Made by a program: the position numbers and the translations under genes. Under the pieces are notes generated by a model. The model had not been told where the DNA came from. It saw only the letters and a list, made by a program, of their open reading frames with translations, and made no database searches. Below, in pieces: positions 35,151-61,184 of a stretch of DNA of 64,000 nt; the stretch's first letter is position 1, and every line of letters starts with the position of its first letter. This DNA comes from Strigamia acuminata. Taxonomy: Eukaryota. Where the stretch lies: NCBI GenBank assembly GCA_949358305.1, contig OX442314.1:17422001-17486000 (forward strand), in the 5' to 3' direction.

Positions 35151-36040
35151 AAACTATTATTGTCTTCATGAAGACAGTCATGTTGTTGAACAAAGTTCTG
35201 ATGTCATATGTCAAGTGATATCAAAAGAGGAAATGACATCATTGAATCTCAAATGATAAAATTGAACTTGGATCTTGGGACTATTTTTTACCTAGCAACT
35301 GTTGTTTACAGTATTCATACACTAGGCCTGATTGCTCAGATTTGATGTATACACAGACAAAATAGTGCCAACTTTGAGCTCATTGTTTGCATTGTTGGCT
35401 GTCTATGGAATAAAATTATTTTAGGGTCTCATTCAGCATGATATAACAATCCTTCTTGTTTAATATTATAACAATCTGTGATAGCTTATTGGTGCTCTCC
35501 CCTTGTAAATATAATATATAATCGAAACTTATCCCAAAATGCAAAGATTTGCATCTTTAGCAATTGCATAAGCTTAGTCTGTGCTAATTACATTGTCAAA
35601 CATTTCTTGTTCATTCATCTGCTGTAGTGAAAACACTTGCTCAGATGCTTATTTTGCTAAAGCTAAAAAGTATTGAGTGTGAACAAAATAACTTTCTCTT
35701 TTTTTTTGCATCAATTGTACACGTAAATTAAATAGAGTTTCTATCTGAAATTATTTGTTGTAATGTTTTTCTCTTTTTCCTTGTAATTTTCCAAACTTTG
35801 ACAATTTCTTACACCCTCTCAGCGTGAATACATTGTTCACCTCCTTCAGTATTACCCATAATATTGCAATTCTGCCTTTTGTTTTTTACCTTTTCACTGC
35901 CAACTGCCTTATTCTAAAAACAATAATGTTTTAAAAATGAAAGTGCAATTATATAAACTGTTTCCTTATCCTTACGATAATCATTTGATTCTGTTTGTAC
36001 GATTGTCTGTAGAATTTTGGCCAATCTTGATATGTCTTTT

Positions 36041-38417
36041 TCAACCATTGACTGTTTTGATGCCGTTGTCATCAATCTTTTTTTCTGCTGAGTTGGTCGC
36101 TAAAACCTTGACAGAGGGCAACACACATGTTTTTTGATGCACTTGTTGAGCAGAGAAAAGTGCCAAAGTCACATTTGGCTGATAATGTTGATCAAACCTA
36201 AAGCAACAAAACATTTAAAAATAAATCAACATTTAGTTGCATCGTATGAATGTAATCACCATACCGATTTGTCTCCGAATGAAGTACAACACGCTCTGGA
36301 TTGAGTAACACCGGGGGTCCATGATTCAAAAATGGAAGAACAGAATGAGAAATTCTAAAAATAAATGGAAAAGTGTTTTAAAAAATAAATATTTCTGTAA
36401 AAAAGAGAGCTGAGTGAGTGTATCATACTTGTCTCTATAAAAGGCGGTTAGTTGTGGTTGTGGCATTGACTGATGAGTCAACATTGGTTTGGCAAGTTTT
36501 CCCATTACAGAAGAGCATGGAACGGATACTTGAGACCACAAAGTTGGAACAGTCGGATACCAGTAAGTAGTCACAGGATCAAATACATTAGACAAGTATC
36601 CTGGAGTAACTGTTTGTTCATCATACGTAAAATATTTTGCTTTTTTGGTCGAAATATTTACTTCTTCTGTGTACTACAAAATAAAATACTCCGTATGTAT
36701 TTAAAAAAAATCAATTTAGATATTCAAATTAAGCATTCAAAAAGAAAAAGAAAATAAATATAATTCTTAAAGTAAAAAAAACATTTTTGAAAAATTTGAA
36801 AAAGATTTGCTGTCTCCCATTCAAACACACACAAAAAAACCAGTAAACGACACCAAGTCCATTTGGGACATTCACTGCACTTTCTTCAATTGCCCATCTT
36901 GAGTTATAGACCCTTGTCTGATGTTGTATCCAGAAAGCTGATCATGTAGCTCTTTACATCAACTAGGTACTATAAAGAGAATTCATGTAGTAGCTTTCTC
37001 ACTGAACATACGAAACACGTCTATTGCATTTTCCTTATCACCCAAGTCCCTTTTTTGAAACGCACAAGAACTGCACAATTCAAAGTTAAACAGTTATTAA
37101 TACATGTACAATTTGCATTTATCAATTTCTGTTCTCCTAATCAGTCAGTCCACCCTTTAATATTTTGTCAACAAAAATTGCGAAATAAACAAGCGGAGCT
37201 TTACGTTGGCTAATTGGGTTGTCGCCCAAGGACCTGGTCCATAAAAACTGTTAATTGCGAAGTACACCATCATGGGTTTAATTTTTTAAACCCCAGGGTT
37301 TGTTTTATAAAAGATCGATAAAATGATTTTGTGTTTACCAAATAAAAAATTATGTTGAAAGTCCCAGGGACCCGAAATCCACCATTCATCCCTGTCTAAG
37401 CTGCAGCTTAAAGAAAGTTTGAAAACTTAATTACCAGAAAACGTTTCTTACCATCTTTTTCTTATATTTATGATTGCTGTCATCGAAATACTTGTTCTTC
37501 ATTTCATTCAATTTGATTTGTAGTTGCTCCAAGTTGACCTGATCTCTTGCCAAAAGCACGTAAGCCCTCCAATTGGCTGAATCAAAGCCCCAGTGACAAG
37601 TCCGTTTTTCGAGGCCTTTATGGGCATGACGAACAAATTTTTGGGGCGAAAAATGGACGTTACACCCAAGACATTCGATACATAAAGCATCGGGAGAAAA
37701 GTAATATTCAGGAGTGTACAATCCCTTACATCTTCCAAAACACTTGTGATAAACTTTAAACGAACTCTTCTTTCGTTTTAAGGCACCTAACACCACTGGT
37801 TGTTGATAAAGGAGGGCATTTGTCAACCTTTCAGCATCAGTTTTAGTGATGAGTCCACAACTCGGAGCTCTAAATGGCAAAACTCCAGTTACCTTGAGCA
37901 CCTCCAGTTGCTCGTGATTGCATTGTGAGCAGAAAATTTGCAGATCGTCGCAAACACCGTTTATTTGCTGCAAACTAAAATCTCTGAGAACACTGTTGAG
38001 GATCTGAGGTAGACATAACCGCTTTTCTCCTCCGACAACAAAACACGAGATCACATTTCCTTCCAATATCGTCTCGGTTTTCTCACTTCGACTTTGATCA
38101 GGTGCAGTTAAAATTGGCAGCTGTTGAATGGGAAAACGAGTGCACGATGGAAACGAATCGTGAATTGCTGATGTCGATGAAGGGTTCGGAACGAGTGCAA
38201 TATTTTTCTTAATAGATTCGGTCAAAGGTATAAATGTACTGGTTTTTGACCCAAGTTGGTCGAATTTACTCACTCTACTTGCCGTCCTAGCGCCCAAATA
38301 ACTGTCCGGCCCACTTAGGCTTGTTCTAGCAGCTTTCCGATAACTGTTGAGAACCTTCTTCAGACGAAGAGTTTCGCATGACGCCTCGCACGGTTTCATT
38401 TCCGACCCTTTCTTCAT
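36041..38417 (-). CDS. Ski: Ski/Sno family transcriptional corepressor; exons 38417-37452, 36673-36429, 36354-36265, 36197-36041 (about 485 aa; 3' end less certain)
   Basis: Dachshund-homology domain ([30 protein letters not shown]...[12 protein letters not shown]), SAND-like SMAD4-binding domain ([11 protein letters not shown]...FVRHAHK...[15 protein letters not shown]), downstream [12 protein letters not shown] and FDQHYQPNV; phases consistent. Confidence 0.93.
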
Positions 38418-38729: not shown

Positions 38730-40716
38730 TTAGTCATTCATTTCACATTAAAGATTTGTTTTTCATTCAAAACAAAAATATTTCGGCGAATTAAAATGGT
38801 GAACAAACTGCCAAATGGTTACCATTTAATCTTAAATAAAAGCATAATTGAACTTCTCGAAAATCAATTTAAATATATGAGATTTTGTTGTTTTGTTTCA
38901 TTCTAGAAGTCAAAACATAGTCTACGAACTGCGTAATTCAATCACAAACTAATTATGTCGACAAAACCATCTTTAATTCATGTCTATAAATTACAGAAAT
39001 AAAGCAAATTACGAAATTTTTTGGCTTCAAGTATTGTATTCGTTTCAAATGTTTGAAAATAAAACCTTATGGGTATTCAACCGAACCTTCAAACAACCTT
39101 CAACCAAGAAGAAGCGACTGTAGGGTTTCCTGGGGACGGCTTTGAAATGATGAAAACTGATATGCTTAATCAAACCACACAGAAATCACAAGCAATCAAC
39201 TTGTTTACATCTATTTGTATGAATCTATGGTTTGTTTATCATTGCAAGGTACATATAAAAAGAACAGAAAATTGAATTCAAGGATCTGGAAATGATGAAA
39301 ATCAAAGATTTTAACAGTCAGGTAGCAATGTGGCATAAAATAAATTACAAAAGCCCCAAAAGGAAAGAATTGGCGATTGACTCGGATGAAAAAAGTTACT
39401 ATTTCATTTTTACTATGATTTCTTGACAGTTGCCCAATTTTTTTAGTTTTTCAACTTGTTTACACCCCACAATAGTGGTTGCTATATATCATCACTGTCT
39501 GTTGTAGTGGAACAAGCTTACGCAGCTCTGAGTGTATTCGAAGAAATAGTATCTTAGCAGCGGCTTTGAAAAAAGAAAATTAATCCAAAAAAAAAAATTA
39601 TTTCTAGTCAAAACATTTTGCAATATAATCCCTAGCTATTAATTTTGTCCCGAATTAAATCTTTTATTCAATTAATAATAAGACTAAAGGGGGAGATTTT
39701 CTCATTTGCATCTTTGGGTCTCTCGATAGATGAAAATTGTGAACTTTAAGTTGCATGCTGAGGGGAAGTAAAACAAGTTTTCTTTAATTAGAACGGGTTG
39801 ACGAATAAAGTGGGGAAGTGTCAGACTAGCCAAGATAATTAGCATAACTATTAACTGAGTGATTATCCACCTGCTACCAAAGCGTGAGTACTATTTCGAG
39901 TAATTTTTTTTTTTACCATTTGCATCCGGCTTATTACTGCATCACGCAAACTACTGATATCATCTTTAATTTTTGTCAAATACCGGTAATTAACTAGATA
40001 TCCTTTCTTTTGTTGACTCCTGCAACACCGGGGCTAGAAAAAAGATTAAATTTGCATTTTATACACTGGATTGTTTGGAATGCTGCTGCTACAAAAAGGA
40101 AACAATCAAGTGTTAATTAGGTCAACTACTTGTAAATTTCATATTCAATAACCTCTAATGCGAAATGACTTGGATTATTAAACTTAAATGGAGAGCAATA
40201 ACTGAAATTCAGAACAAAAATTGAAAATTTCACATAAATTGCTCTTATTATTATTATTATTTCGCATCGTTACATTTAAAAGCATTCAGCTAAAGGAAAC
40301 TTCAACATATGTATAGCATGAATCTTTTTTCTCACTCGGATAAGTTTGATGGCGAGAAATGCTCTCAAATCATGCACAACGTAAGCAAGCCATCATTGAA
40401 ACTAAACTTTTCCATTTATACTGTCATTGTACGTAATTGCAAATTAGAACGACGGATTTGAATCTAGATGTGGAGTACAATTTCTTTTTTAGTACAATAT
40501 GCGGAATTTATGCCAGAAATGTGTTTTGCGTGTTGTGTGTGCTTTTTGGGGATATAACGGTATCAGCAAAATAGCATTTACCAGTAAAAGATTTCGCAGT
40601 TAAATTAGATTCATGTCAATTTATTTTTAACTAATAAAACAAATTTTAATTAATTAATTTTTTTAGGTTTTTTTTTTCAGCCTGGCAAACGTTGGGGTGC
40701 GACTGTTATCAGCTCG

Positions 40717-43247
40717 TTATTCTTCTGAAGAACTAGAAGAAGAAGAACTAGAAGAAGACGAGCTAGAAGAAGAAGAACCAGAAGAAGAAGAACCAGAAGA
40801 AGAAGAACCAGAAGAAGAAGAACCAGAAGAAGAAGAACCAGAAGAAGAAGAACCAGAAGAAGAGGTAGATGAAGAACTAGAAGAAGAGTCAGATTTTTCA
40901 GAAGAAGAACCAGAAGAAGAAGATTCAGAAGAAGAAGAACCAGAAGAAGAAGAACTAGAAGAAGAACTAGAAGAACTATCCAAATAGTTTAAAATTATAA
41001 AAGAAAAAAAAATTAAATTAAACTCAAACATAATATTTGTAGTGAGCATACGAATATAATACCTGGGGTTTTTAGGCAAATAAATTTGACGAAAATCAAA
41101 ATGGTAGCCTCCTTTGTGTCGGCCTGTCGAACTTGTGCCTTTTGGAAAACCATAGTCCAAGAAAGATTTCACGAAATAGTATACGGAATTGACAATGTCA
41201 TCTTCAGTAAGGTTTTCTAAGAGTTTGCCTAGTTTTGCAACCCAATCTACTTCTGCTTTCTTTTTTTTGCCACCAAGTATACCTAAATTGGGTGAAAAAA
41301 AAATCATTATTTTCATTTAGATATGCATTAAAACCTCCTCTTGCCGATTGCCTTTTAAGTTTTTCTTTGATTGGTTTGCTGTGCGACCTTTACGGTTACC
41401 TTTGCGGTGTGGGTGAGTTTTTCCACGTTTACCATTATAATAATCTTAACACCGGTAGAAATGAGAATTGATATTTTAATTCTCGGTGAAATTTACACGG
41501 ATGAATTCAAAACGTTTTATGTATTTTTGAATCTGCTGTGTTTATGCTTAACACACAAGAAATAATTTTGGCTAAAATTCTTACACATTTTTTCATTTTA
41601 ACAATAAGTCGTGCAATTGCATATGCGAAGTATGTGCACAAGCGACATCGCGCTTGCGAATAACCACGATGCAAACGCGTCGCGCTTGCTCATACACACA
41701 TTATTTACAAGCGCGATGTCGCGAGTATTCATAAGCGCTACGTCGCAGTTGCAAATGCTATGCGTCGCTGCAGAGAATATCGCGCGTGGAATAGCGTGCC
41801 CTAATTTTTTATTTAAAAAATAGACATAGTGGTAGGACCATCCATCCTTTGATTCTGTAATTACCAAACTATTCCAACGTTAGGTTTGTTCAAAGTTTCT
41901 GTAAACAGCACAAACAAATGTAAAATACACGCCTAACTATGAATGTGTGTACGGCAATTTCGTTTTAGGGCCTCTTTCAGTTCAATCTTTTCTTTGGATT
42001 TTATGAATAAATGGCGCTTAAAAAGTTTTTCATTTTTACTCAATCAACGAATTGTGGCCCACTTATTTGAACACAATTACATGTATTTACTCACGTTTAA
42101 GGAGCTGAATGCTTCGTTTGAAAGCATTGTAACAGTTGGAAAATTTGACCCCTCGATTTAGCTTGCATAAACAATTTCAAAAACACACATGTAAGCGTAA
42201 CAAATACGTGATTTGCAGACGAAACAAAAGATACAGTAAGTGCCCTTGTGTGCAATTGACATTTTAGATTTTTGTGTTTTCATTTTTGAATTTGGTATTA
42301 AGATACCAGTATGCAGACTGTAGCTACTTACTGCTTTCCTAACCTTAGTTTTCCGCGAAAGTTTACAGCATGAAAAGTTTCAACAGCGAAATATTTCATC
42401 ATTTATTGGAAGCAAATTCCATAAATTATTTATGAAATCTTTTTTTTTAAATTTCTAAGTTGTTATTTATGTGCTCTGATAATTTTTTGTACTTACGACC
42501 ATGAAAATCTTCATCGCTCTCTTTCAGGACCTGTAAAAAGCGGATATAAGCATATGTGGGAAATGTGTAGCGCCTACACATATTTTGGCATCACTGACTT
42601 TGACTTTCTTTCCTTTTCCTTTTGCTTTTGCTGCCCGTCCTTGATTAAACTCCTGGTAAATTCTTGGAAAGGGTGGACCCTGGAAAGAATAATTAAAAAA
42701 CTTGCAAAGACAAGTATATAAATCACTAACTAAACCTCCAGCATCCTAGGAAGTTTATTTTGATCAAAACATAAGTAATCGAATTTTTGGGCAATTAAAA
42801 CTGAGCTCATTCAATAATTTGTGATGGTGCTGATTGTTTTCTTAAAAAATAATAAAGAATTGCGTCATAAACAAATAGCCTTCAACCGTCCAGCCAATGA
42901 TAACAATCTTCAATGCTTAGCTATGCCAACGAAAGTTTGCCTAGCTACGCCAACAAAAGTTTGCTTAGCTATGCCAACGAAAGTTTGCTTAGCTATACCA
43001 ACGAAAATTAAAAATATTGAACCAACAATAGAAGAATTTATGATTAATGGCTACATACCAGATCCGTAGCTTTGCCTGATACACCACTATTCTTCTGTGT
43101 GGATACATTCTAGCAAAAATAATATATACAATGAAGTGAATGAATTAGTTTTAAAAAGTATTGAAAATAGCAACTATTAGTCATTACTTTTGACAAAAAT
43201 CCAATTAAAACAGTCAGGAAAAGTGCTATTTGGATGTTCGCAAACAT
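40717..43247 (-). CDS. Secreted Ser-rich protein, paralog A; exons 43247-43188, 43109-43059, 42679-42599, 42530-42497, 41282-41063, 40975-40717 (about 234 aa)
   Basis: Signal-peptide-like exon MFANIQIALFLTVLIGFLSK, phase-consistent GT-AG junctions, last exon poly-Ser/Gly ending SSEE-stop; extra exons in the long 4th intron cannot be excluded. Confidence 0.7.
41621..41800. mobile_element. CpG-rich 180-bp insertion specific to paralog A, probable truncated MITE
   Basis: Missing at the homologous sites of B (~49435) and C (~54508); internal inverted motif gcgacatcgcgcttg / caagcgcgatgtcgc. Confidence 0.6.
42914..43005. repeat. 24-bp tandem repeat (gcttagctatgccaacgaaagttt, about 4 copies) in intron 2 of paralog A
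   Basis: Direct reading; homologous position to the 19-bp array in paralog B. Confidence 0.85.
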
Positions 43248-43387
43248 CCTGGTGGTTAACACATATGATACTATACTACCTTATTGTGAACTAACTATAA
43301 CTTAATGTTCCTTTGTTCCATGCATTCTTTAATTTTAATTTGAATATAAATTTTAAATACAAATAACACATGCTTTGAAGCGGATAA

Positions 43388-43396
43388 TTTTTTATA
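43388..43396 (-). promoter_or_regulatory. Candidate TATA box of paralog A (equivalents at 53434-53442 and 56492-56500)
   Basis: TATAAAAAA conserved 149, 149 and 132 nt upstream of the three ATGs; AT-rich background lowers specificity. Confidence 0.5.
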
Positions 43397-45858
43397 ACTC
43401 TTTATTAATATTTTAGATTTCTTGAAAAAAAAATAAACTATAGTATCCCCGAAATTGTAATACTATAAAACGGATATGTTTCACTGCAGAAATAATTTTG
43501 GTTTTGTGTACAATGATGTTACTTATGGTACTGCTGATGGCATTTGCTCCAAACAATACGGTTTCAGTGTTAATTACAGCCAAGTTCTTAATTTGCTGTA
43601 GTGACAAAATTCTGTGTAATCGCTGCAGTGAAAAGTGACAAAATTTAGAGCATTTATTGTAAGAATAAGATTGTTCGGAACCAATTGTATTATTTATTTG
43701 TTCTGAGAAATTTTAACATGCTGATCCGGTACAATTTCACTCATATTTGATTTATAGCTTTGTCTGCACTCTTTATGTCTGTAATATTAATAAACTGGAA
43801 TACACGTGGTTGTTTGTCGTCATCATTGATTGGACAATAAGTTGTACAAATTTTATGAGTTTGTATCTCGGACGACAGTAAATTATCAAGGATGGTAACA
43901 CTCAACCAAGTAAGTTAGCCTTACGTTCCAACAACACAATTACTCAGGCAGTTACTATATTCAATGTTTTTATCCAGGACCTATCAATACTGAAGAAGAA
44001 AAACAGTTGGAAACTTGGCATTGAGCGTCACCCTCGAATTTCGACAACAATGGAGGCTTGATCTAACAAAAATACTGTCAAAGAAGCAACAATTCAAATT
44101 GAATTTGTTCTGTCAATTGAGGTTGACCTATTTTAGATTTGCTTCATTTTTGCTGTTTATTTCTAAGCCAAAAATTAATAGATTTGGATGATTTTTTTTG
44201 TATGTTTCTGTTTTTTAGTGCGAATAACTTATCAATTCGACATGTCGTTTTTTTAATGAGCACAAAAACGATCTTGTGTTGACTTTTTCACAAATTTAGA
44301 AAACAGTTGGACAAAAATATTTGGAATTTTAAAAAATGATAGATAAGAGATACAGAACTCTAAAGCAAGTAGAACAAACAGCAAAAATATAGATTTAACA
44401 TTTCCAACCATTTCATCTGATGTCAATAGATAAGAAATAATCATTTTTGAAATGCTATCCATCAAAACAATCACACTTCACTGCCAGATATGATTCCTAA
44501 ACTAGAGAATTTCAAAAATCAATGCTGCTAAACAACTTTCTAATTTGAAATTAGTCCAAATGTCAGGTGATATTTGGGAATAAAGTTTAAAATTGGTGTC
44601 AGGCTAAAATAAATATAAGCTTGCATCACTTTAGTATTATTCTATACATTGATTGGCACTGAACTACAGTGACTGAAGTTATGTAATCATTCTAAGCTAA
44701 TCTCCAGTACAGTACGTTTACATAAATTAAGTACCATATTTCTTGTAGGCGGAGTTTTAGTATATTTTATCCTGTTTAGTCGAGGTCATAAAAATCGTCC
44801 CAGTCCAGCTTGAAGCTCACCTGCAGAAAGAGAGTTTTTGGCTTTATCCGCCAAGTAGTGCAAAAATTCACTGATATGTTATGACAAATTGACATTTAAA
44901 TGATGTCAGGTGCAGGTGATTGAGTGACATCATGTAAATAATGTGGGATATTTTATTCTAGATTTTGCATATATTAAATATTCGATGTAAAATAGGTTTA
45001 AGGATTTGTTTATTGTATTTTGGTAACAGCGCATGAGTTGCATATGTTTGTTGTTGCAAGTGTGCGTTGTTTTCACACAATTGGTTTCTGAATGCGTAAA
45101 ATGGTGTTGTTAGGAGTTTTGTCAAGTTGTGTTTACTGGGTGAATACTGCTAAATGCCTCACAAAGTGATAACAGAGGACGGTTGTGTTTTGGTGGTTGT
45201 GTGTCTGGAGCAGTGTGACCAGAAAGGCATTAAGGATTTGTGAAAATAGTGAAAGATTTCAAATAAAGCTTAAGGAAGAAATAAAGAGCCAACAATGGAA
45301 CAATAAAAGCTAAACCTAACGTGCTCTGTTTAATAGCGCGAATAACTCATCAATTCGATATAATCGTTATAACGAATCGATTTTTTGGGTCCCTTGCAAT
45401 TCGTTATACAAAGAGTTCCGACTGTATTGAATGTGGATCGGAAGTCATCTTTTTCGTGCAAAATACATCCAATTCTGTTTTACAAATACATTCCAGAAAA
45501 AACCATGAAAAAACATGGAAAAAAATACAAGGAAAATTCTTTAAATATTTCCTAAACAAGGACAATTACCTCAATATTTTGTACTCCGTAAAAAATTACA
45601 GTCAATGGAGATATTTTTCGTGTTAAATCAAAAGAAATCGTGTAAAAACAGAATTGTACAGTAATTTACTTTCTAAATTGTGTTATATCAGAACTGCAAT
45701 TATTCCAGAAGTGTTTGTCATGTTATGTGTGGGGGGTTATAAATATATTTTATTCAGTTAAATAACATTTATCGGTAAAAGATTTTGCAGTTAAATTAGA
45801 TTTATGTCATTTTAATTTTGAACTAATAAAACAAAAAAAATTATCTATTATATTTATC

Positions 45859-48800
45859 TTAAAATGCTCTGGTATTATATGTATCTTCGTATGCTCTGGG
45901 TTTATGTTTATCTTCATATGCTCTAGTATTATATGTATCTTCATATGCTCTAGTATTATATGTATCTTCGTATGCTCTGGGTTTATGTTTATCTTCATAT
46001 GCTCTGGTATTGTATGTATCTTCATATGCTCTGGTATTATATGTATCTTCGTATGCTCTAGGTTTATGTTTATCTTCATATGCTCTGGTATTGTATGTAT
46101 CTTCATATGCTCTGGTATTATATGTATCTTCGTATGCTCTGGGTTTATGTTTATCTTCATATGCTCTGGTATTATATGTATCTTCATATGCTCTGGTATT
46201 ATATGTATCTTCGTATGCTCTGGGTTTATGTTTATCTTCATATGCTCTAGTATTATATGTATCTTCATATGCTCTGGTGTTATATGTATCTTCGTATGCT
46301 CTGGGTTTATGTTTATCTTCATATGCTCTGGTATTATATGTATCTTCGTATGCTCTGGGTTTATGTTTATCTTCTAATGCTCTGGTATTATATGTATCTT
46401 CATATGCTCTGGTATTATATGTATCTTCGTATGCTCTAGGTTTATGTTTATCTTCATATGCTCTAGTATTATATGTATCTTCATATGCTCTGGTATTATA
46501 TGTATCTTCGTATGCTCTGGGTTTATGTTTATCTTCATATGCTCTGGTATTATATGTATCTTCATATGCTCTGGTATTATATGTATCTTCGTATGCTCTG
46601 GGTTTATGTTTATCTTCATATGCTCTAGTATTATATGTATCTTCATATGCTCTGGTATTATATGTATCTTCGTATGCTCTGGGTTTATGTTTATCTTCAT
46701 ATGCTCTGGTATTATATGTATCTTCGTATGCTCTGGGTTTATGTTTATCTTCTAATGCTCTGGTATTATATGTATCTTCATATGCTCTGGTATTATATGT
46801 ATCTTCGTATGCTCTGGGTTTATGTTTATCTTCATATGCTCTGGTATTATATGTATCTTCATATGCTCTGGTATTATATGTATCTTCGTATGCTCTGGGT
46901 TTATGTTTATCTTCATATGCTCTAGTATTATATGTATCTTCATATGCTCTGGTATTATATGTATCTTCGTATGCTCTGGGTTTATGTTTATCTTCATATG
47001 CTCTGGTATTATATGTATCTTCATATGCTCTGGTATTATATGTATCTTCGTATGCTCTGGGTTTATGTTTATCTTCATATGCTCTAGTATTATATGTATC
47101 TTCATATGCTCTGGTATTATATGTATCTTCGTATGCTCTGGGTTTATGTTTATCTTCATATGCTCTGGTATTATATGTATCTTCGTATGCTCTGGGTTTA
47201 TGTTTATCTTCTAATGCTCTGGTATTATATGTATCTTCATATGCTCTGGTATTATATGTATCTTCGTATGCTCTGGGTTTATGTTTATCTTCATATGCTC
47301 TGGTATTATATGTATCTTCATATGCTCTGGTATTATATGTATCTTCGTATGCTCTGGGTTTATGTTTATCTTCATATGCTCTAGTATTATATGTATCTTC
47401 ATATGCTCTGGTATTATATGTATCTTCGTATGCTCTGGGTTTATGTTTATCTTCATATGCTCTGGTATTATATGTATCTTCATATGCTCTGGTATTATAT
47501 GTATCTTCGTATGCTCTGGGTTTATGTTTATCTTCATATGCTCTGGTATTATATGTATCTTCATATGCTCTGGTATTATATGTATCTTCGTATGCTCTGG
47601 GTTTATGTTTATCTTCATATGCTCTAGTATTATATGTATCTTCATATGCTCTGGTATTATATGTATCTTCGTATGCTCTGGGTTTATGTTTATCTTCATA
47701 TGCTCTGGTATTATATGTATCTTCATATGCTCTGGTATTATATGTATCTTCGTATGCTCTGGGTTTATGTTTATCTTCATATGCTCTGGTATTATATGTA
47801 TCTTCATATGCTCTGGTATTATATGTATCTTCGTATGCTCTGGGTTTATGTTTATCTTCATATGCTCTAGTATTATATGTATCTTCATATGCTCTGGTAT
47901 TATATGTATCTTCGTATGCTCTGGGTTTATGTTTATCTTCATATGCTCTGGTATTATATGTATCTTCATATGCTCTGGTATTATATGTATCTTCGTATGC
48001 TCTGGGTTTATGTTTATCTTCATATGCTCTGGTATTATATGTATCTTCATATGCTCTGGTATTATATGTATCTTCGTATGCTCTGGGTTTATGTTTATCT
48101 GCATATGCTCTGGTATTATATGTATCTTCGTATGCTCTGGGTTTATGTTTATCTTCATATGCTCTGGTATTATATGTATCTTCATATGCTCTGGTATTAT
48201 ATGTATCTTCGTATGCTCTGGGTTTATGTTTATCTTCATATGCTCTAGTATTATATGTATCTTTATATGCTCTGGTATTATATGTATCTTCGTATGCTCT
48301 GGGTTTATGTTTATCTTCATATGCTCTGGTATTATATGTATCTTCGTATGCTCTGGTATTATATGTATCTTCGTATGCTCTGGGTTTATGTTTATCTTCA
48401 TATGCTCTGGTATTATATGTATCTTCATATGCTCTGGTATTATATGTATCTTCGTATGCTCTGGGTTTATGTTTATCTTCATATGCTCTGGTATTATATG
48501 TATCTTCGTATGCTCTGGGTTTTTGTTTATCTTTGTATGCTCTGGTATTATATGTGTCTTCGTATGCTCTGGTATTATATGTATCTTCGTATGCTCTACG
48601 TTTTTGTTTATCTTCATATGCTCTGGTATTATATGTATCTTCGTATGCTCTGGGTTTTTGTTTATCTTTGTATGCTCTGGTATTATATGTGTCTTCGTAT
48701 GCTCTGGTATTATATGTATCTTCGTATGCTCTGCGTTTTTGTTTATCTTCATATGCTCTGGTATTATATGTATCTTCGTATGCTCTGATATCAGAAGAAC

Positions 48801-51800
48801 TATAAGAGACAGAAGAAGAAGAGCCAGAAGAAGAAGAGCCAGAAGAAGAAGAATTATACAGGACATAAAATTATATTAGAAAAAAGAAATCATAATATTT
48901 GTAGTGAGCATACGAATGTGATACCTGGCATCTTTAGACAAATAATTTTGACAAAAATCAAAAACTTACTTCGCTTTGTTTCGATCTGCCGGACTTCTAT
49001 CTTTTGACAATCTATATTCTTCACTAAGGTTTTCTATGAGTTTGCCTAGTTTTGCAATCCAGTCTACTTCTGCTTCATTTTTTTTGCCACCAGCTTTACC
49101 TAAATTTGGTGGGAAAAAAATCATTATTTTCATTTAGATATGCATTAAAACCTCCTCCTGCCGATTGCCTTTTAAGTTTTTCTTTGATTGGTTTGCTGTG
49201 CGACCTTTACGGTTACCTTTGCGGTTTGGGTGAGTTTTTCTACGTTTACCATTATAATAACTTTAATAACAATAGAAATGAGAATTGATATCAATTCTCA
49301 TTTCTATTGTATTTTAACTCTAGATGAAATTTACACGAAAGAAACCTAAACATTTTTTTTGTGTTTTTGAATTTGCTATTTTGGCTGAAATTGTTACATA
49401 TTTTTTCATTTTAACAGTAATAAGGCGTGGAATTGCCTGAATTTTTTATTTAAAAATGAACATGGTTTTAAGATCATCCATCCTTTGATCCTGCAGTTAC
49501 TAAACTATTAAAAAAACACTGAATTTGTTTCCAACATTAGGTTTGTTCAAAAGTTTCTGCAAACAGCAAAAACTTATGTAAAATATACGCCTAACAATGA
49601 ATGTTTGCGCGGTAATTTCATTTTAGGGCCTGTTTTCTGTTCAATCTTTTCTTTGGATCTTATGATTAAATGGCGATTAAAAAGTTCTACATTTTTACTT
49701 AATCAACAAATTGTGGCCCACTTATTCGTACACAATTGTGGCCCACTTATTCGAACACAATTGTAGCCCACTTATTCGAACACAATTGTGCTTTTATTAA
49801 TGTTTTAGCAGGTGGATGCTTTGCTTGAAAGCATTGAAGGTATTATTCTACTTTACCGGCCATCTCTCAGATCATCTCCAAAATTGGGATGTACAGGTAG
49901 GGTGGGAAATCGAATGGCGTTAACGGTTTTGGGGGCAAACGGAAACGGATGCAAAAAACAGGAGATTAATGGCAGTAGGTTTATACTTGTTAGATTAGAT
50001 TAAGCATTGGAATCAAATGGACCATTGTTGCCGTTGTTTATTGTTATTGTGGTCGCAAGTTCCACAGCATTAGCGGGCAGGGAATTTAGGGGGGGGGGGG
50101 TGGCAGAGCGCCCTTAAATAAGAAAATAAAAAGCACGTGCATAACAATGCTGGAGAGAATGATGACAGCTAACAATAAAATTAAAAAATTGAAATAATGG
50201 ACCATATGATGTCAATCAAAAGTAGTATACAGTAACAGGTCGTTAATCTCCTGTTTTCCGGTTAGTTGTCTCTCAAAATTAATCAGTGAGGTCACGCTTT
50301 ATTGCACTCCCAAAAAAAACATGAACAAATGTCTGAATTCTGAAGAATGAATAGGCCTTCAGTTAAATGTTTACAATATGGGAATACTTAACAGTGCCCT
50401 TGTGTGCAACAGACAATTTTAAATTTTTGTTTTCATTTTTGTGTTTTTGGAATTTGGCATTAAGATGCCAGTGTGCAGACTGTAGCTACTTACCGTTTTC
50501 CAAACCTTTAGTTTTCCGCGAAAGTTTTCAGCTTGAAAAGTTTCAACAGCGAAATATATCATCATTTATTGGAAGAAAGTTCCAAAAATGATTTAATTTT
50601 TTTTTTTAATTTCTAAGTTGTTAGTTGTGTGCTCCGATAATTTTTTGTACTTACGGCCAAAATCTTCACTGCTCTCTCTGAGACCCTGTAAAAAACGGGT
50701 ATAAGCACATGTGGGAAATGTGTAGCGCCTATACATACCATCATTGACATGACATCTGTTTTTTCCGGTCGTTTATCACTATCCATATAAACTCTTGGAA
50801 AGGATGAATCCTGGAAAGAATGATTAAAAAACTTACAAAGCAAAGTAACTGAATTAGATTTTAAAAAGTATTGAAATAACAACTATTAGTTCTTTCGTCA
50901 AAGTGACAATTGCAATTGAAAAAAATTGAACACAAATCTAGTTCTGCCTTTGGTTTTATTTTGACCAAAACATAAGTAATCGAATTTTTGGGCAATTAAA
51001 CTAAGCTCATTCAATAATCTATGATGGTGCTGATAGTTTTTTTAAAAAAAACCTTGAAGAATTGTGTCATAAACAAATAGCCTTCGACTTTCAAGCCAAT
51101 AGTAACAACCTTCAATGCTTAGCTATGCCAACAAAACTTTGCTTTATGACGATCATGCAGTCGCTCATCGATATAGCGACAAATTACGCCAATAGATGGC
51201 GCTGGCGACCACAGGCGGCAAATTCAAGTAGAATTTGTCACTTGATATAAAACCACATAAAATGCAACTTTTATGTGATTTTAAGGCAGAGAGTCGACTT
51301 TATCTTATATTTATGGCAATAAATATAGATATTATGTTGTTTTGTGATAACTCTGCAAAGTTACCTCAAAACTAGGTTTAGGGGATTAAATCTCCCCCTC
51401 GCACCTGCTCCAAGCGTGGACCCCCGCGGATCAAGTTGAAAGACTTAATCCAAAAGTGTTCCTCGCTATCCAGTTCCTGTCCCGACCTAGCAGAGAGCTA
51501 TGGTCTGTCTTTTTGACCACCTGGACTGAAAATGTGTCCTGAGTATCCCATCACCTGGACCAGTGATTGGGGGGATTTGCAGGACCATTGCTCTCATTGG
51601 AGCAATGGCCAAGCTATTGTTTTCCCCGAGTATATACTTCCTCGCAACAGGAAGTAGCTTGCTCTTGACCAGATATTTTGACTATATGTTTTCTTGAGCC
51701 CTTTCTACTACTTCAGTGTTATGTTGATTGCGCAAACACAAGCTTGCCTGTTGATTGCGCAGCCAATGCCCCTTATACTGCGGGCCTATGAGAACATACA

Positions 51801-53293
51801 TGCGGCGCACACTTGACGTGGAGATGGGTGATATGATGCCTCCATGTCCGGGTGCCCGATGACGGCTGTGTGGCCGTGAGGAGATCAGGTCGCGGCGATG
51901 AGTAGTAAGAATCCCGTCGGGCCGGATATATTTCAACAAGTGTTCCACAAGGCCTGCCAGTTACAGTAAACCACGGCTGCCGAACAGCGTGTCGAAAATG
52001 TAACATTAGGGTTGAAATAACTAAACTCGGAAAAGTTTAGTTAGATTAAATCCCCAACTGGTTTATGTCACAACTCAGCATTGTGCATAAACATGGATAC
52101 TTCTTCCAGAACTGTGCAAAACTGAAGACTAGTTACATTAGCATTTACTTGCCAGTAAATGTGTAGCTAAATTGCCAACTTTATGTAAGCAGAATTATTA
52201 CGAGTATTTACTGAAAAGTAATACTCTAATAAATACATCCATTACACGGAACCAGAAGTTATGATTGTAAACTCGCAACAGTTTACTCTCATATGAAGAA
52301 CCATTTGACGTATCACACCAATTATAAATGTCTTAAAACATTTATAAGAGGTCAATTGGTAAATGGCTCTCACAAGCCATTTAAACCAATAACCGCCCCA
52401 AGTTTGTGGCGATGCAGATACAGTCAACCGGAAGTCCTCGGATACTAACCTTTTCATTACAGATTTGAACCAGACCCCGATGTACAATTAGGACCAAATA
52501 ATCAACCGATTCAGACGACATCTTACCCACCCGATGAAGCCGACTTGATATTATCATAGAGCCGTTTAGGCGACTGTATGTATAGTTAATTGACCAATTT
52601 ATACAGCCAATTGTCGGCATAGTTACTGTATAACTGTATTTTATGCAAATTGATTAATATAATCACTTTACGGTGATTATATTTATATATCAATAAATAT
52701 GTTATGTGTTGATAACTGAATGCCTCATTATTTTACCCAGTTCACACTTTAGGTTTTGTCAATCCTATCTCTCAACTACTGAATAGATAGACTAGCTTGT
52801 TATGCCAAAATACATATTTTGAGCGGATAGCGTCATCGAAAGGTCATCGTCACAGCTTAGTTATGCCTCTTATGCCATCGAAACTTTGCTTAGCTATGCC
52901 AACGAAAGTTTGCTTAGCCAACGAAAGTTTGCTTAGCCAACGGAAGTTTGCTTAGCCAACGAAAGTTTGCTTAGCCAACGAAAGTTTGCTTAGCCAACGA
53001 AAGTTTGCTTAGCCAACGAAAGTTTGCTGAGCCAACGAAAGTTTGCTTAGCCAACAAAAATTAAAAAATATTGAAACAACAATACAAGAATTTATGATTA
53101 ATAGCTATATACCTGCTTCTTCCCGAAGCCATAATTCTTGTGTGTGGATACATTCTTGTAAAAATAAAATACGCAAAGAAGTGGATGAATTAGTTTTAAA
53201 AAAGTATTGAAAATAATAACTCTTAGTCATTACTTTTGACAAAAATCCAATTAAAACAGTCAGGAAAAGTGCGATTTGAATGTTTGCAAACAT
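45859..53293 (-). CDS. Secreted Tyr-rich repeat protein, paralog B; exons 53293-53234, 53154-53113, 50810-50739, 50685-50655, 49099-48970, 48799-45859 (about 1090 aa)
   Basis: Same exon layout as A and C. The last exon is 2941 nt, open from SSDIRAYEDTYNT to RAF-stop at 45859-61. Its 3' flank (45765-45835) is homologous to the 3' flank of A (40575-40645). Confidence 0.7.
45862..48786. repeat. 27-bp minisatellite, 108 units, with an 81-bp higher-order period
   Basis: Unit variants atgctctggtattatatgtatcttc(a/g)t and atgctctgggtttatgtttatcttcat; first-to-last unit distance 2916 = 108 x 27, so no net indel. Confidence 0.97.
49711..49790. repeat. 25-bp tandem triplication (ttgtggcccacttattcgaacacaa)
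   Basis: Three copies here, a single copy in paralog A near 42052. Confidence 0.85.
51145..52854. mobile_element. Probable solo LTR (1.7 kb) in intron 2 of paralog B
   Basis: Absent from paralog A; ends TATGACGAT...ATCGTCACA (inverted, TG..CA with one change); 4-bp duplication GCTT at 51141-44 and 52855-58; AATAAA near 52693; no long ORF. Confidence 0.75.
52883..53055. repeat. 19-bp tandem repeat (gcttagccaacgaaagttt, about 8 copies) derived from a 24-bp unit
   Basis: Direct reading of the sequence. Confidence 0.9.
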
Positions 53294-53625
53294 CCTGGTG
53301 GTTAACACATATGATACTACACTACCTTATTGTGAACTAACTATAACTTAATGATCCTTTGTTCCATGCATTCTTTAATTTTAATTTTAACATAAATTTT
53401 AAATAAAAATAATGCATTGTTTGAAGTGGATAATTTTTTATAGCTCTTTAATATTTTTAATTTTTTGAAAAAAAAAATAAACTAAAATTGTAATACTATA
53501 AAACAAATATGTTTCAATGCAGAAATAATTTTGATTTACTGTATACAGTAACAAAATTAATCTTTTTTAGTAATATATTTATTTAATTCACTGGCAAACA
53601 TTGGGGTGGGACTGTCATCAGCTCG

Positions 53626-56368
53626 TTATTCTTCTGAAGAACTAGAAGATGATGAACTAGAAGACGAACTAGAAGAAGAAGAAGAACTAGAAGAAGAATC
53701 AGAAAAAGAACTAGAAGAAGAATCAGAAGAAGAACTAGAAGAAGAAGAACCAGAAGAAGGACGACCAGAAGAAAGACGACCAGAAGAAAAAGAACTATCC
53801 AGGTCATTTAAAATGATAAAAGAAAAAAGAAATTTAAATTAAACTCAAATCACAATATTTGTAGTGGCATACGAATATAATACCTGGGGTTTTTAGGCAA
53901 ATAAATTTGACGAAAATCAAAATGGTAGCCTCCTTTGTGTCGGCCTGTCGAACTCGTGCCTTTTGGAAAACCATAGTCCAAGAAAGATTTCACGAAATAA
54001 TATACGGAATTGACAATGTCATCTTCAGTAAGGTTTTCTAAGAGTTTGCCTAGTTTTGCAACCCAGTCTACTTCTGCTTTATAATTTTGTCCACTAACTT
54101 TGTCTAAATTTGATGAAAAAAATATCATTATTTTGATTTAAATATGTATTGAAACCTCCTCCTAATCTTTGCAGTTGCCTCTTGCCTTTTATGTTTTTAT
54201 TTTGCTGGTTTGCTGTGCGAGAACTGGGTCTTTTTGTGGTCTTATCACGATTACCTTTACGGTACGGGTGATGTGGGCCATGTCTACCACCTTCATAATA
54301 ACCTTGATAACGATAAAAAGAAGAATTGAGATTTTAGTTTTGAGTGAAATTTACACTCATGGCATACCGGTGTTCAAAAATATGTATTTTTGTGTTTTTT
54401 TGAATTTTATGATTTTATGCTTTAACACCAGAAATTTTTTAACACCTATTTTGGCTGAATTTCGTATATGCCTACATTTTTTTCATTATAACAGTAAGTC
54501 GTGCAAATGTCTGAATTTTTTATTTCACAAATGGACATGGAGTAGCAGGATGAGTTTAATTTTAAAAAATCTAAAAACTAAAAACTAAAAACTGCCCATA
54601 TCTCTGCAACGGTGCCAGATATGCAAATTCCAACCGGGAGAATCGATTTTTTTAGGTCATTTTATGTCTAATCAGCACATTTTTAGCACTTTTTCTTAAA
54701 AATTTAGTACAAAAGATTTGAGGAGTAGTCATTTTTAGACTAAATAAATGTTGCTCTACAAGTTTACAATTGGAGATTTCTGTCTATCTCTAACGGTTTT
54801 CGAGATAATTTTCCAATGACCTTGAAGGAACATCCCAAGGTCAAATTTTGGGTCACCAAAAGATTGCCCCACCCAACTTTAATACTTTGCCATCATTAGA
54901 TTAGATGCATTGTCAGCCCTTTCAGAAATATTTAGTAGAGAACCAGACTTTTTTACCACCCTATATAAAATCTAAAGTAATCATCGTCTTTTCGTGGGAA
55001 ATTGTGGGATTTTTTCCGGGGCCCTCGATGGGTGGTGACTCCCAAGCAACTGCTGATTTTTCTTATGCATAAATCCGGCCCTGCCCCTCAATATTTAACT
55101 TGCACAAACCATTTCAAAAACACACACATACAAACAAAACAAATATGTGATTTGTCAAAGTAATAATTCTATCACTTGTTCGCTGAAGAGAATTTTAGAT
55201 TTTTGTTTTTTCATGATTGAATTTGGCATTAAGATATAGTGTGCAGACTACTTTCCAAAACCATAAGGTTTCGTCGATGTTTTCAGCATGAAAATGTTCT
55301 ACAGCGAAATATTTCATCATTTATTGGAAGCAAATTCCATAAATAATTTATAAATTTTTTTCTTTTTTAATTTATAAGTTGCTAGTTATGTGATTCGGTC
55401 ATTTATTGTACTTACGTCCCTCAAAATCTTCATTGCTCTCGCTGATAAAACCCTGCAAATAAAAATTTTTTAAAAAAAAAATCAGGTATAAGCATGTGTG
55501 AAATTTGTCATCTTTCTGGAATCACTTGCTGTCGGCGTTCCCGGATCTCTATCAAAATCCAAAGAATTTTTTTTAAATAACTCCGGTATGGAGTAAATCT
55601 GGAGAGAATAATTAAAAGTTTGCAAAGAAAAGTAAATAAATTAGATTTTAACAAGTTCTTTTTTTTTGTCAAAAAAAAATTGAACATAAATCTCGTTTTG
55701 CCTTTGCTTTTAAGTAATGGACTCCACTAAAAAAAAACCCCATTGATATAAGTTACCCTTTTTAGTTTGCATTAAGAGTTGATTTACATACATATCCTGC
55801 AAATTCCGTCTTAAATTTTGTAAGATTTTTTTAACTCTTGAACTGCTTAGAGTTATCAATTTTAAAAACATGATGAATCCACCAAACACTACTTGTAATC
55901 CAGTCTCAGTCACATGGAATCAGATCCCTAGCTAAACTTCCAATAATCTTTAGAGTTTATTTTGATGGAAAACGTCAGACTTACAAAAATATAATCGCTT
56001 TTATGCGGAATTATAAATTGAGCTCCTTCAATAAACTCTGATGGTGCTGTTGCTTAGCTTTGCCAAAGAAATTTTGGTTAGCTATAACATCAAATATTAA
56101 AAAGAATTGAACTAACAATACGGTAGTCTACTATTAATTTATTATTGATGATTACATACCTTCTCTGCGTATTCAATGTCTTTGCTTCTCAGTCTAGCTT
56201 TATACATCTGGCTAAACATTTGTGTGGATGGAATCTGAAAAAATAAAACATGCAAAGAATTAAATAAATTATATTTAAAAAAATATTAGAACAACAATTA
56301 GACATTACTTTTGACAAAATGACAATGAATCCAAGGAAGAAAATTGATATTTGGATGTTTAGCAACAT
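53626..56368 (-). CDS. Secreted Ser-rich protein, paralog C; exons 56368-56309, 56234-56160, 55598-55530, 55452-55416, 54103-53884, 53794-53626
   Basis: Signal exon MLLNIQISIFFLGFIVILSK, ESNEDF exon, 220-nt exon almost identical to paralog A, poly-Ser last exon ending SSEE-stop; intron 3 needs a GC donor (gcaagt). Confidence 0.65.
54548..55085. mobile_element. Transposon-fragment patch replacing part of intron 4 in paralog C
   Basis: No homology to A or B; contains ends resembling Tc1-like (CACCCTATA at ~54960) and hAT-like (TAAATCCGGCCCTG at ~55080) termini as recalled. Confidence 0.45.
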
Positions 56369-56832
56369 CCTGGTGTTTCACAAATGATATGATACTCCTT
56401 ATTACAAACCAACAATAACTTAATGTTCCTTTGTTTCATATGTTCTCTAATTTTAATTTGAATAAAAATAATGCAACTTTAATGCTGATAATTTTTTATA
56501 GTTCTTTATTCGTATTTTTGATTTTTTTAAACAAAACCCAAAATTATAAATACAGTACGGTACCGGTACTATAAAACAGATCCATTTCTGTGGGGCGCCG
56601 TACATTTCACTGCAGAAATAAGATTGGTTTTGTGCACAATGTTGTTACTATGTGGCACTGCTAGTGGAATCATTTGATCCAGTTTTGGTTCCAGACAAGT
56701 TTTTATTTGCTGTGGTGATAAAATGATGTATAATCTCGTAGCCAGATTTCAAACATGAAAGAATAGTTGATTTGGAACCAAATTCTTTATTTATCTATTC
56801 TGAGGAATTTTAACATCTGCTGATTTGATGTA

Positions 56833-56896
56833 CAATCGTGGACAAAAAATTGTCTCCTTTTCCAAAAAAAAGCGAGAATTTTTTTGTCCACGATTG
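56833..56896. mobile_element. 64-bp mini inverted-repeat element
   Basis: CAATCGTGGACAAAAAA...TTTTTTGTCCACGATTG inserted after TA; empty site in the paralogous region near 43730. Confidence 0.75.
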
Positions 56897-58301
56897 TTCC
56901 ATTTCACTCACATTTTATTTAGAAAAAAGCTTTGTCCATATCCTTTGAATCTGCAATAAACTTGACTATTATTTTATACGCGTGGTTATTTATTGCCATC
57001 ACTTTGAACAAAAAGTACTGTAATACAAATTTCTTAAGTTGTACCTTGGAATTATAAAGTGAATTATAAAGGGTGGGTAGCACTCACAAGTCAGGCAGTT
57101 CCTAGGACCAACCAACTCAGACTTGAAAAAAAAACAGACGAACACTTGGCACCGAGCGCCACCCTCGGCGGATTTTGACAACAATGGAGACTCGATCCGA
57201 CTCGATCAAACTAAAAAGCTGTTGAAGGAGCAACAATTCAAATTGAATTTGTGCTGTCGGTGGACCTGTTTAAGATTTGCATCATTTTACCTGTCACACT
57301 TTAATGGATAGTCGTTTTTCCGACGAAAATAAAATAATGTTGTCATCTTGATGAACACACAATAGTGATTTTGATTGACATTTCAATTTTTGGTTACACT
57401 TTCAATTTCAATAAGAGAATTTTTGTACAATTTGAGTTTTTATTACTAGAATTAGAATCTTAGAGATTTTTTTCTGAATGCAAACACAAATTGCAAATGG
57501 CTACTACGGTACTGAAAGGGAAATAATCCATAGTATTTGTAATCGCCACGCGCCAGTAGAAATAATTATTGACGAGTCTCTTCACTTAATAATTTATTAA
57601 ATATTCTCAATCTTCGACAGCGACAGCGACAGTAAGTTGACAAACATTGAAAAGATGAAAATAACATTTCAAATTCACTTTTACACATCAAAACATTCTA
57701 TCAAATTATTTTGAATTATTTATATTCGTATCGTTGCGCATCTTCATATTCATATTTTCATTTTCATTTTGCTTTTGACTTTAGATTTAATTTTTTTTGA
57801 AATTATAATTATGATTATTATTATTATTTTCTTTAAGATAACGTTATTCTGTGCCACTTCTCTGCTTTAAAATTTGGAAAAGTCATGTGGTAATGTGGTA
57901 AGTCCATACAACAAAGCCGTCGAACCATTTTTATTCTTTATTTATTCTTTCTTGTAAGAAATTTGAAGGAGAAATATACGAAGATTATTCTTTTCACTAT
58001 TTATGTATTCATCAAGCTGAAAACATTATTTTATTTTTATTTACCGTCATTTTATGTTGTCTTTAATTTTAGAACAGTTCATCCTTTGCCAACCGGGAGG
58101 TGTTTCGAGTTCAAACAAGCTTCCATTTATTTATCACAAAGGATTTTCCCTTGATCTAACTTGTAACCGCCATACAGTTTGACGTACGCGTAGTCATAGT
58201 ATGACGTAGTGCATATCGTTCGGTAGATACGTGTCAATAGAATAAGAAATAAAATAAATAAATATTTAATGAATCAACAACAACGCTATCAGTTGAGTTT
58301 T

Positions 58302-59629: not shown

Positions 59630-61184
<1,555 letters not shown>

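What the first reader, a model, noticed from the sequence alone, without database searches (positions are those of the whole stretch)
45859..48799. Hidden 979-codon exon: the minisatellite encodes 108 Tyr-rich nonapeptides in the frame the ORF track misses
Seen: the third minus-strand frame has no start codon but no stop from 48798 to TAA at 45861. It reads mostly (RAYEDTYNT)2-RAYEDKHKP, roughly 18% Tyr with alternating acidic and basic residues. Most unit variants are synonymous in this frame (TAT/TAC, ACC/ACT, CCC/CCT, GAT/GAC, AAT/AAC). It splices in phase to upstream exons and is followed by a 3' flank homologous to paralog A. Caveat: the + strand 931-aa frame shares the same wobble positions, so synonymy alone is not decisive; gene context and hydrophilicity favour the minus frame. 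Inference: a secreted repetitive structural, adhesive or defensive protein (Tyr for DOPA/dityrosine cross-links or sulfation at YED), or a polyprotein cut at the periodic Arg.
Basis: partly seen in the sequence, partly recalled or inferred. Interest (0 to 1): 0.9.

Follow-up and report, generated by a model that had tools for sequence, protein, structure and literature searches.

The report
Candidate centipede glue protein gene
A 3-kb DNA repeat in a centipede-like genome is likely the last exon of a gene predicted to make a secreted 132-kDa tyrosine-rich protein, which would be a candidate for the large protein of the defensive glue of soil centipedes.

Summary
There are 108 perfect 27-nt units, the minus frame is open to TAA at 45861, and Tyr is 17.9%.

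The array sits where the last exon lies in a three-gene tandem family (A, B, C). All three models share a signal-peptide exon and intron phases 0,0,0,1,2. A and C end in Ser-rich tails; B would give 1091 aa, about 132 kDa mature.

The only two credible relatives among 1.84 billion proteins are secreted Strigamia maritima proteins T1IS47/T1IS48. The neighbouring Ski gene is sister to Strigamia's.

B is the derived copy. It needs a new GTAAGT donor and must skip an upstream acceptor, which lies in a B-only hairpin. No RNA run was available, so splicing is inferred (about 80%). Open frames and synonymy are weak evidence: five of six frames are open in the consensus unit.

Best reading: the bulk protein of a sticky secretion, likely sternal-gland glue. 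A 130-kDa band is reported for Henia glue (PMC7766067), but the species and tissue here are unknown. The unit may derive from the ancestral 3' UTR after stop loss.

The parts
53234..53293 (-). Gene B exon 1: ATG and predicted signal peptide (20 codons)
   Evidence: hydrophobic core KD 2.8; all 3 differences from A are synonymous
53113..53154 (-). Gene B exon 2 (phase 0-0)
   Evidence: AG/GT ends, homologous to A and C
50739..50810 (-). Gene B exon 3 (phase 0-0)
50655..50685 (-). Gene B exon 4 (phase 0-1)
   Evidence: GTAAGT donor
49269..49310 (.). 42-nt perfect palindrome unique to B; it covers the pyrimidine tract of the upstream (4b) acceptor, whose AG is shifted by one base in B
   Evidence: longest palindrome in the window, 42 vs next 20; RNA hairpin z -5.5; 21-nt insertion
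49108..49260 (-). Vestige of the Strigamia basic spacer and GGGFN peptide, out of frame with exon 5 and predicted to be intronic in B
   Evidence: tblastn; frames
48970..49099 (-). Gene B exon 5 (phase 1-2): first half of the family domain, an in-frame 45-nt deletion, and a new GTAAGT donor at 48969
   Evidence: unspliced contigs match the DNA with 0 differences over 48758-49143
48800..48852 (-). Remnant Ser-Gly repeats in the array's frame; the ancestral acceptor TAG reads TAA, and the first AG after the tract is at 48801-48800
45859..48799 (-). Gene B exon 6: 108 nonapeptides (Arg-Ala-Tyr-Glu-Asp + Thr-Tyr-Asn-Thr or Lys-His-Lys-Pro); stop TAA at 45861-45859
45811..45816 (-). Candidate poly(A) signal ATTAAA, aligned to AATAAA of paralog A
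40717..43247 (-). Paralog A: predicted 234 aa, full family domain, Ser-rich tail (37% Ser of the mature chain) ending SEE
   Evidence: domain matches T1IS47/T1IS48
53626..56368 (-). Paralog C: predicted 209 aa if a GC donor at 55529 is used, full domain, Ser-rich tail (29% Ser)
   Evidence: all 3 differences from A in 195 nt of the domain are synonymous

Best explanation
The array is likely the translated last exon of gene B, predicted to encode a secreted 1091-aa (about 132 kDa mature) Tyr-rich protein that would serve as the bulk polymer of a sticky gland secretion of a centipede, most likely the sternal defensive glue. Shown in the sequence: the array, the exon skeleton shared by three paralogs, homology of the family domain to Strigamia T1IS47/T1IS48, and the composition (array 18% Tyr, 22% Asp+Glu, 20% Lys+Arg, no Gly, Cys or Ser; pI about 6). 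Inferred: B splices 48970 to 48799 and skips the hairpin-masked upstream acceptor; the signal peptide routes it to a gland; the Lys-Arg-Arg sites in units 2 and 5 may release a head of about 13 kDa. Proposed and untested: the near-neutral polyampholyte is stored as a dense fluid through Arg-Tyr cation-pi and charge pairing. It then sets on discharge by drying and/or Tyr oxidation (DOPA or dityrosine), with the Ser-rich products of A and C, if phosphorylated, as polyanionic partners. Origin, also inferred: the Ser-rich tail and stop were lost and a 27-nt piece of former 3' UTR was amplified in frame.
For: Coding: six exons with GT..AG ends and phases 0,0,0,1,2 in all three paralogs (C needs one GC donor). 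The exon-5 acceptor is likely in use, because the domain behind it is 40-44% identical to Strigamia and differs between A and C only at 3 synonymous sites in 195 nt (p about 0.01). The array lies in the ancestral last-exon frame, continuous with the Ser remnants. Of 44 donor/acceptor pairs, 10 reach the array frame, and the one perfect GTAAGT donor with the first AG is among them; GTAAGT occurs 0.24 times per kb. B's deletion is in frame. B's exon-1 changes are all synonymous, and exons 2-4 diverge faster from A than the chosen flanking intron pieces (103/145 vs 359/423 identical, p 0.0005). Lineage: Ski is sister to Strigamia at 100/99, and the only credible family hits are Strigamia. Function: geophilomorph sternal glands release a fast-hardening glue, with bands of 12 and 130 kDa in Henia (passage, PMC7766067); the predicted mature mass is 131.9 kDa. 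Tyr-rich plus phosphoserine-rich pairs build sandcastle-worm cement (passages, PMC9783952).
Against: No transcript or peptide evidence. The new donor overlaps an in-frame TAA, so use of the ancestral donor at 48924 would give a 112-aa product, and use of the shifted upstream acceptor gives a frameshift. B has lost two ancestral acceptors and half of the family domain, which also fits a decaying gene. The unit seems to come from 3' UTR DNA (p 0.011 vs C, 0.86 vs A), which fits a UTR minisatellite equally well. The synonymy signal is modest and shared with the plus frame. The mass match is one number from a species not known to be this one, and Haplophilus glue shows only 30-67 kDa bands. Strigamia is the only myriapod named in the tree, so 'geophilomorph' is not proven. 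Sticky secretions are often Pro/Gly-rich (PMC11170834 section 7), whereas this array has no Gly and 3.7% Pro.
Confidence: 0.45

Rival explanations
1. The exon is coding and secreted as modelled, but the product belongs to another material: the male spermatophore web or ultimate-leg gland secretion, an egg coat, a seminal plug or cuticle.
For: The coding evidence is the same as for the best explanation. Geophilomorph males spin silky threads and carry dense leg glands of unknown chemistry (passages, PMC8056527). Exons evolving faster than introns is also typical of reproductive proteins (recalled).
Against: Nothing direct. The 130-kDa match points weakly to glue.
Confidence: 0.2
2. B is a truncated or decaying paralog that ends at the TAA at 48968 (112 aa) or earlier, and the array is a non-coding minisatellite expanded in its 3' UTR.
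For: Two ancestral acceptors are lost, 45 nt are deleted from the domain, and the ancestral donor is still recognisable at 48924. The unit aligns with ancestral UTR and runs through the stop. Five of six frames are open in the consensus.
Against: A triplet period, an in-frame deletion, a new consensus donor in the right phase and an open ancestral frame over 975 codons would all have to be coincidences. Any phase-2 GTAAGT donor creates an in-frame TAA by itself. B diverges from A more just before the new donor (17/50) than after it (6/37), p 0.09. Intronic minisatellites of these genes have periods 19, 24 and 25.
Confidence: 0.18
3. B is a polyprotein cut at each Arg into about 100 short bioactive peptides, as in multidomain centipede venom transcripts.
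For: The Strigamia relatives look like peptide precursors, with 5 and 3 full copies of a 35-aa Gln...Gly-Arg unit. Centipede SLPTX4/8/9 transcripts carry several linear peptides (passages, PMC4379518). The sequence of Strigamia's abundant venom peptide GEOTX01 could not be seen, so identity with this family is not excluded.
Against: The array has no Gly and no Cys. Only 2 of 108 units end in a dibasic site; the other Arg residues follow Thr or Pro. The Gln...Gly-Arg module is out of frame in B.
Confidence: 0.12
4. The plus-strand 980-codon frame (Val/Leu/Tyr/Ser/Ala) is the real gene.
For: It is open from end to end, and the variants are equally synonymous in it.
Against: GRAVY is +1.45 over 980 residues. 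There is no Pfam match, and no plus-strand gene context was found. The wobble-partner frame is open 41% of the time whenever the minus frame is open.
Confidence: 0.02

Closest known systems
Strigamia maritima uncharacterised proteins T1IS47 (P0124) and T1IS48 (P0123)
   Same: Similar signal peptide (T1IS47), a 65-aa two-helix C-terminal domain (40-44% identical to A), a Ser/Glu tail, and a vestige of the GGGFN peptide.
   Different: Strigamia repeats a 35-aa Asn-rich Gln...Gly-Arg peptide upstream of the domain. Here that module is single and out of frame, A and C expand the Ser tail, and B keeps half the domain and adds 108 Tyr-rich nonapeptides.
Henia vesuviana glue proteins, 12 and 130 kDa (seen only as cited in PMC7766067; Hopkin 1990 not read)
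   Same: Predicted 131.9 kDa mature mass; probable soil-centipede lineage; small paralog or cleavage products of 10-22 kDa.
   Different: No sequence of the glue proteins was found in the searches made. Species and tissue here are unknown, and Haplophilus glue bands are 30-67 kDa.
Sandcastle-worm cement Pc-1/Pc-2/Pc-3 and mussel foot proteins (passages, PMC9783952)
   Same: Works like them in design: Tyr-rich chains beside Ser-rich chains from the same secretory set.
   Different: No homology shown. Pc-1/2 are small and basic (18-21 kDa, pI 9.7-9.9), whereas this is a 132-kDa near-neutral polyampholyte. DOPA and phosphoserine are untested.
Centipede multidomain venom transcripts SLPTX4/8/9 (passages, PMC4379518)
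   Same: Signal peptide plus repeated units, in a centipede.
   Different: No Cys-rich part, no amidation Gly, and almost no dibasic sites in the array.

Membership tests
T1IS47/T1IS48-like secreted family (defined here) | N-terminal signal peptide | tested here: met
   20-codon exon 1, hydropathy 2.8-3.0, similar to T1IS47; hydropathy and alignment only, no SignalP run
T1IS47/T1IS48-like secreted family (defined here) | C-terminal two-helix domain ending FDFRQI | tested here: met
   A and C full (E 1.8e-10 and 2.9e-8); B keeps only the first half
T1IS47/T1IS48-like secreted family (defined here) | Repeated Gln...Gly-Arg peptide in frame | tested here: not met
   single vestige, one base out of frame with the domain in A, B and C
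T1IS47/T1IS48-like secreted family (defined here) | Ser/Glu tail | tested here: met
   A and C end in Ser-rich SEE; in B only remnants upstream of the acceptor
Geophilomorph sternal glue protein | Present in sternal-gland secretion | not testable with these tools
   needs proteomics
Geophilomorph sternal glue protein | Mass near 130 kDa | tested here: inconclusive
   predicted 131.9 kDa vs a gel band from Henia; species not known to match
DOPA/phosphoserine adhesives (Pc-1 to Pc-3, Mfp) | High Tyr content, with a Ser-rich partner | tested here: met
   17.9% Tyr; paralogs 29-37% Ser
DOPA/phosphoserine adhesives (Pc-1 to Pc-3, Mfp) | Tyr converted to DOPA, Ser phosphorylated | not testable with these tools
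   needs mass spectrometry or NBT staining
Neuropeptide/venom peptide polyprotein | Dibasic sites or Gly-basic amidation signals around each unit (criterion recalled) | tested here: not met
   0 Gly in the array; dibasic sites in 2 of 108 units
Centipede venom families of Jenner et al. 2019 | Sequence match to a venom-proteome family | tested here: inconclusive
   family motifs absent from the stored part of the supplement, which is cut and lacks the GEOTX01 sequence

The most novel reading that the evidence does not exclude
This is the gene for the 130-kDa protein of soil-centipede defensive glue, born recently inside a peptide-precursor family. The stop codon was deleted, a 27-nt piece of 3' UTR was amplified 108 times into an Arg/Tyr/acid polyampholyte, and splicing was rewired by a new donor and a palindrome that hides an old acceptor. 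The neighbouring paralogs supply phosphoserine partners, giving a land-arthropod version of tubeworm cement chemistry.
Probability: 0.3. Interest if true: 0.82.

Novelty: new variant of a known kind. Interest (0 to 1): 0.62.

Why it matters
Geophilomorph glue hardens fast and bonds to glass and metal, but in the literature searched it is known only as gel bands. This locus gives a concrete prediction: one dominant tryptic peptide, AYEDTYNTR (69 copies), and an odd composition with no Gly or Cys in the array. One mass-spectrometry run can test it. The Gly-free Arg/Tyr polyampholyte would be a simple design for bio-inspired adhesives. The locus also shows how a 120-kDa protein region can arise from UTR DNA within a tandem family. 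If the array is non-coding, it is an ordinary minisatellite in a decaying paralog.

Tried and rejected
- No whole genome is held for this window.
- Sequencing runs: no RNA holder was listed. The two holders are unspliced, DNA-like contigs with no 48970/48799 joint; this is no evidence on expression. The 3' end of the array and the stop codon were not checked against reads.
- Array protein P0001: 0 hits among 3753 candidates of 538-1714 aa, and no Pfam match for either open frame. Atlas scores were 0.83 or lower, leads only; there was no usable Atlas hit for P0124.
- Representative search: 5 hits, of which P0125-P0127 were dropped as unrelated repeat proteins (Ig-like, low-complexity, WD40). 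The profile search of longer proteins returned only the 2 Strigamia proteins, which were in the query, among 1635 candidates.
- Structure: a single-sequence AlphaFold model of 181 array residues gave pLDDT 38, uninformative. The domain model (two helices, pLDDT 69) had no match in PDB by Foldseek or VIA-align (best Z 3.1).
- No Rfam match in 40000-58000. Three look-ups of earlier findings returned nothing.
- Papers: 0 hold the family motifs or accessions. The motifs are absent from the searched supplements of PMC6878950 (cut) and PMC11170834.
- Repeat origin: consensus units vs the A/C UTR gave p 0.04-0.89 in 4 tests, so only the terminal-unit test is quoted, as weak.
- My first model treated the DNA upstream of exon 5 as plain intron; one search showed it is former coding sequence.
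- Assembly artefact was rejected on depth ratios.

Full report
1. Observation. The minus frame from 48798 gives 979 residues and a stop. It contains 108 complete nonapeptides in 15 nucleotide variants, arranged mostly as two Thr-type units and one Lys-type unit, with Tyr at 17.9%. A 109th degenerate unit overlaps the stop. Stops per frame over the array are 0, 13 and 3 on plus and 0, 3 and 214 on minus. Openness alone means little: five of six frames are open in the consensus 81-mer, and shuffled 27-mers and 81-mers leave a given frame open 49% and 12% of the time. Distinct changes within unit classes are 7 synonymous and 7 non-synonymous, and 4 more non-synonymous changes separate the classes. 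Depending on how shared events are counted, p is 0.02-0.14, and the open plus frame has the same wobble sites. Depth ratios in two coded DNA-like runs match the assembled unit counts (31.1 vs 32; 2.0 vs 2), and their contigs match 48758-49143 without differences. They may be the source sample.

2. Gene context. Self-comparison shows three tandem paralogs on the minus strand, C, B and A. Each can be modelled with six exons and intron phases 0,0,0,1,2; all donors are GT except one GC in C. Exon 1 encodes a hydrophobic 20-residue leader. A (234 aa) and C (209 aa) end in Ser-rich tails. B ends in the array: 1091 aa, 131.9 kDa without the first 20 residues, pI about 6. Between A and B, exons 2-4 are 71% identical (103/145) against 85% (359/423) for four chosen flanking intron pieces, p 0.0005, while exon 1 differs only at 3 synonymous sites. 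This is the pattern of a fast-evolving secreted product (recalled generalisation). A resembles B in its 5' half and C from exon 5 to just past the stop, which suggests gene conversion.

3. Lineage and relatives. The Ski exon at 37.4-38.4 kb hits Strigamia maritima best (65%) and is its sister at 100/99 in a tree of 27 rows chosen from the 120 listed hits. No other named myriapod is in that tree, so 'centipede, probably geophilomorph' is an inference. A profile of exon 5 scored against 1.84 billion representatives gave 5 hits. Two are Strigamia T1IS48 and T1IS47 (E 1.8e-10 and 2.9e-8); three were dropped as unrelated repeat proteins. T1IS47 has a similar leader, five copies of a 35-aa Asn-rich Gln...Gly-Arg peptide, the shared domain and a Ser/Glu tail. 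The shared domain is predicted as two helices, with no fold match.

4. B is derived, and this is the main caveat. The Strigamia match covers the whole 220-nt exon 5 of A and C, so that form is ancestral. B has a 45-nt in-frame deletion, a new GTAAGT donor at 48969 that overlaps an in-frame TAA, and a last-exon acceptor changed from TAG to TAA, with the next AG in the same phase at 48801. Upstream of exon 5 all three genes keep a vestige of the Strigamia peptide, one base out of frame with the domain. The domain can therefore only be reached through the acceptor at 49099 and its counterparts. That acceptor is likely real, because A and C differ in the domain only at 3 synonymous sites in 195 nt. 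An older acceptor further upstream allows a 45-48 nt in-frame exon in A and C. In B its AG is shifted by one base, which would frameshift, and its pyrimidine tract lies in a 42-nt perfect palindrome found only in B; I infer that it is skipped. Of 44 donor/acceptor pairs around intron 5, 10 reach the array frame, including the best donor with the first acceptor. Together with the triplet period and the open ancestral frame, I put coding at about 0.8. No RNA run was listed, so this is not shown.

5. Origin of the unit. With the array collapsed, B aligns to A and C as a loss of about 36 nt spanning the old stop, and the unit falls on former 3' UTR. The terminal unit matches C's UTR at p 0.011 but not A's (0.86), and consensus units gave p 0.04-0.89. 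This is a weak, positional argument. It cuts both ways: a new coding region born from UTR, or a UTR minisatellite.

6. Mechanism. Each 27 residues carry 6 acidic residues, 5 Lys/Arg, 1 His and 5 Tyr; the array has no Gly, Cys or Ser. Two Lys-Arg-Arg sites in units 2 and 5 could free a 13-kDa head. AlphaFold without an alignment gave pLDDT 38, which is uninformative. A near-neutral Arg/Tyr-rich polyampholyte of this size is the kind of chain that condenses and can be cross-linked through Tyr (established chemistry, recalled). Tubeworm cement pairs Tyr/DOPA proteins with phosphoserine proteins (passages, PMC9783952), and the paralogs are 29-37% Ser. Geophilomorphs release a hardening proteinaceous secretion from sternal glands (passages, PMC6023451), with bands of 12 and 130 kDa in Henia but 30-67 kDa in Haplophilus (passage, PMC7766067; the primary paper was not seen). 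I therefore favour glue (0.45 overall). Rivals are another secreted material such as the spermatophore web (passages, PMC8056527; 0.2), a non-coding array (0.18), a peptide polyprotein or venom role (passages, PMC4379518 and PMC6878950; 0.12) and the plus frame (0.02).

7. Comparison and novelty. No paper in the library holds the family motifs or accessions, and the glue-directed searches (listings and abstract openings) showed no sequenced geophilomorph glue protein. Motifs were absent from the supplements of PMC11170834 (7 files, at least one cut; section 7 and passages also read) and from the stored part of PMC6878950's supplement, which is cut and lacks GEOTX01; the unseen part may bear on the venom reading. 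It works like known repetitive adhesive proteins but shows no homology to them. It is a divergent member of an unnamed centipede family that has lost that family's repeated peptide.

8. Verdict. A real feature, likely coding, with unproven function. Novelty: new variant of a known kind. Interest 0.62; 0.82 if it proves to be the 130-kDa glue protein born from UTR DNA (probability 0.3).

Noticed in passing
P0124 and P0123 (Strigamia T1IS47, T1IS48): Uncharacterised secreted precursors with 5 and 3 full copies of a 35-aa Asn/Gly-rich peptide starting with Gln and ending Gly-Arg, separated by basic spacers; they look like precursors of amidated peptides or of self-assembling glue/silk units.
   Followed up: partly
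window 40650-41300 vs 53555-54110: Paralog A is a mosaic: B-like in its 5' half and distal 3' flank, C-like (92-94%) from exon 5 through intron 5, which suggests gene conversion.
   Followed up: partly
window 41399-41444 and 54254-54302 (-): Possible extra in-frame cassette exon (45 and 48 nt) in A and C; read-through in C gives a product ending in the GGGFN peptide.
   Followed up: partly
window about 51110-52850: High-copy element inserted in B intron 2: summed contig depth 50,000-110,000 vs about 250 nearby in X1; no ORF over 92 aa.
   Followed up: partly
window 34474-35518: Inverted repeat with 463-nt arms, 98% complementary, 119 nt apart; likely a foldback or MITE element. A smaller one lies at 25125-25455.
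   Followed up: no
window 31507-31860 (-): 117-aa frame resembling the end of a DIRS-type tyrosine recombinase (motif recalled); Pfam gave no supporting match.
   Followed up: partly
window 37431-38417, 32310-32537, 60849-61271 (-): Neighbouring exons of Ski/Sno, cytidine deaminase and a forkhead-domain gene.
   Followed up: partly
window 42914-43006, 52871-53059, 49697-49790: Intronic minisatellites of period 24, 19/24 and 25 in A and B.
   Followed up: no
window 55529 (-): Paralog C needs a GC-AG intron (GCAAGT donor), or skipping of exon 3, to stay in frame.
   Followed up: partly
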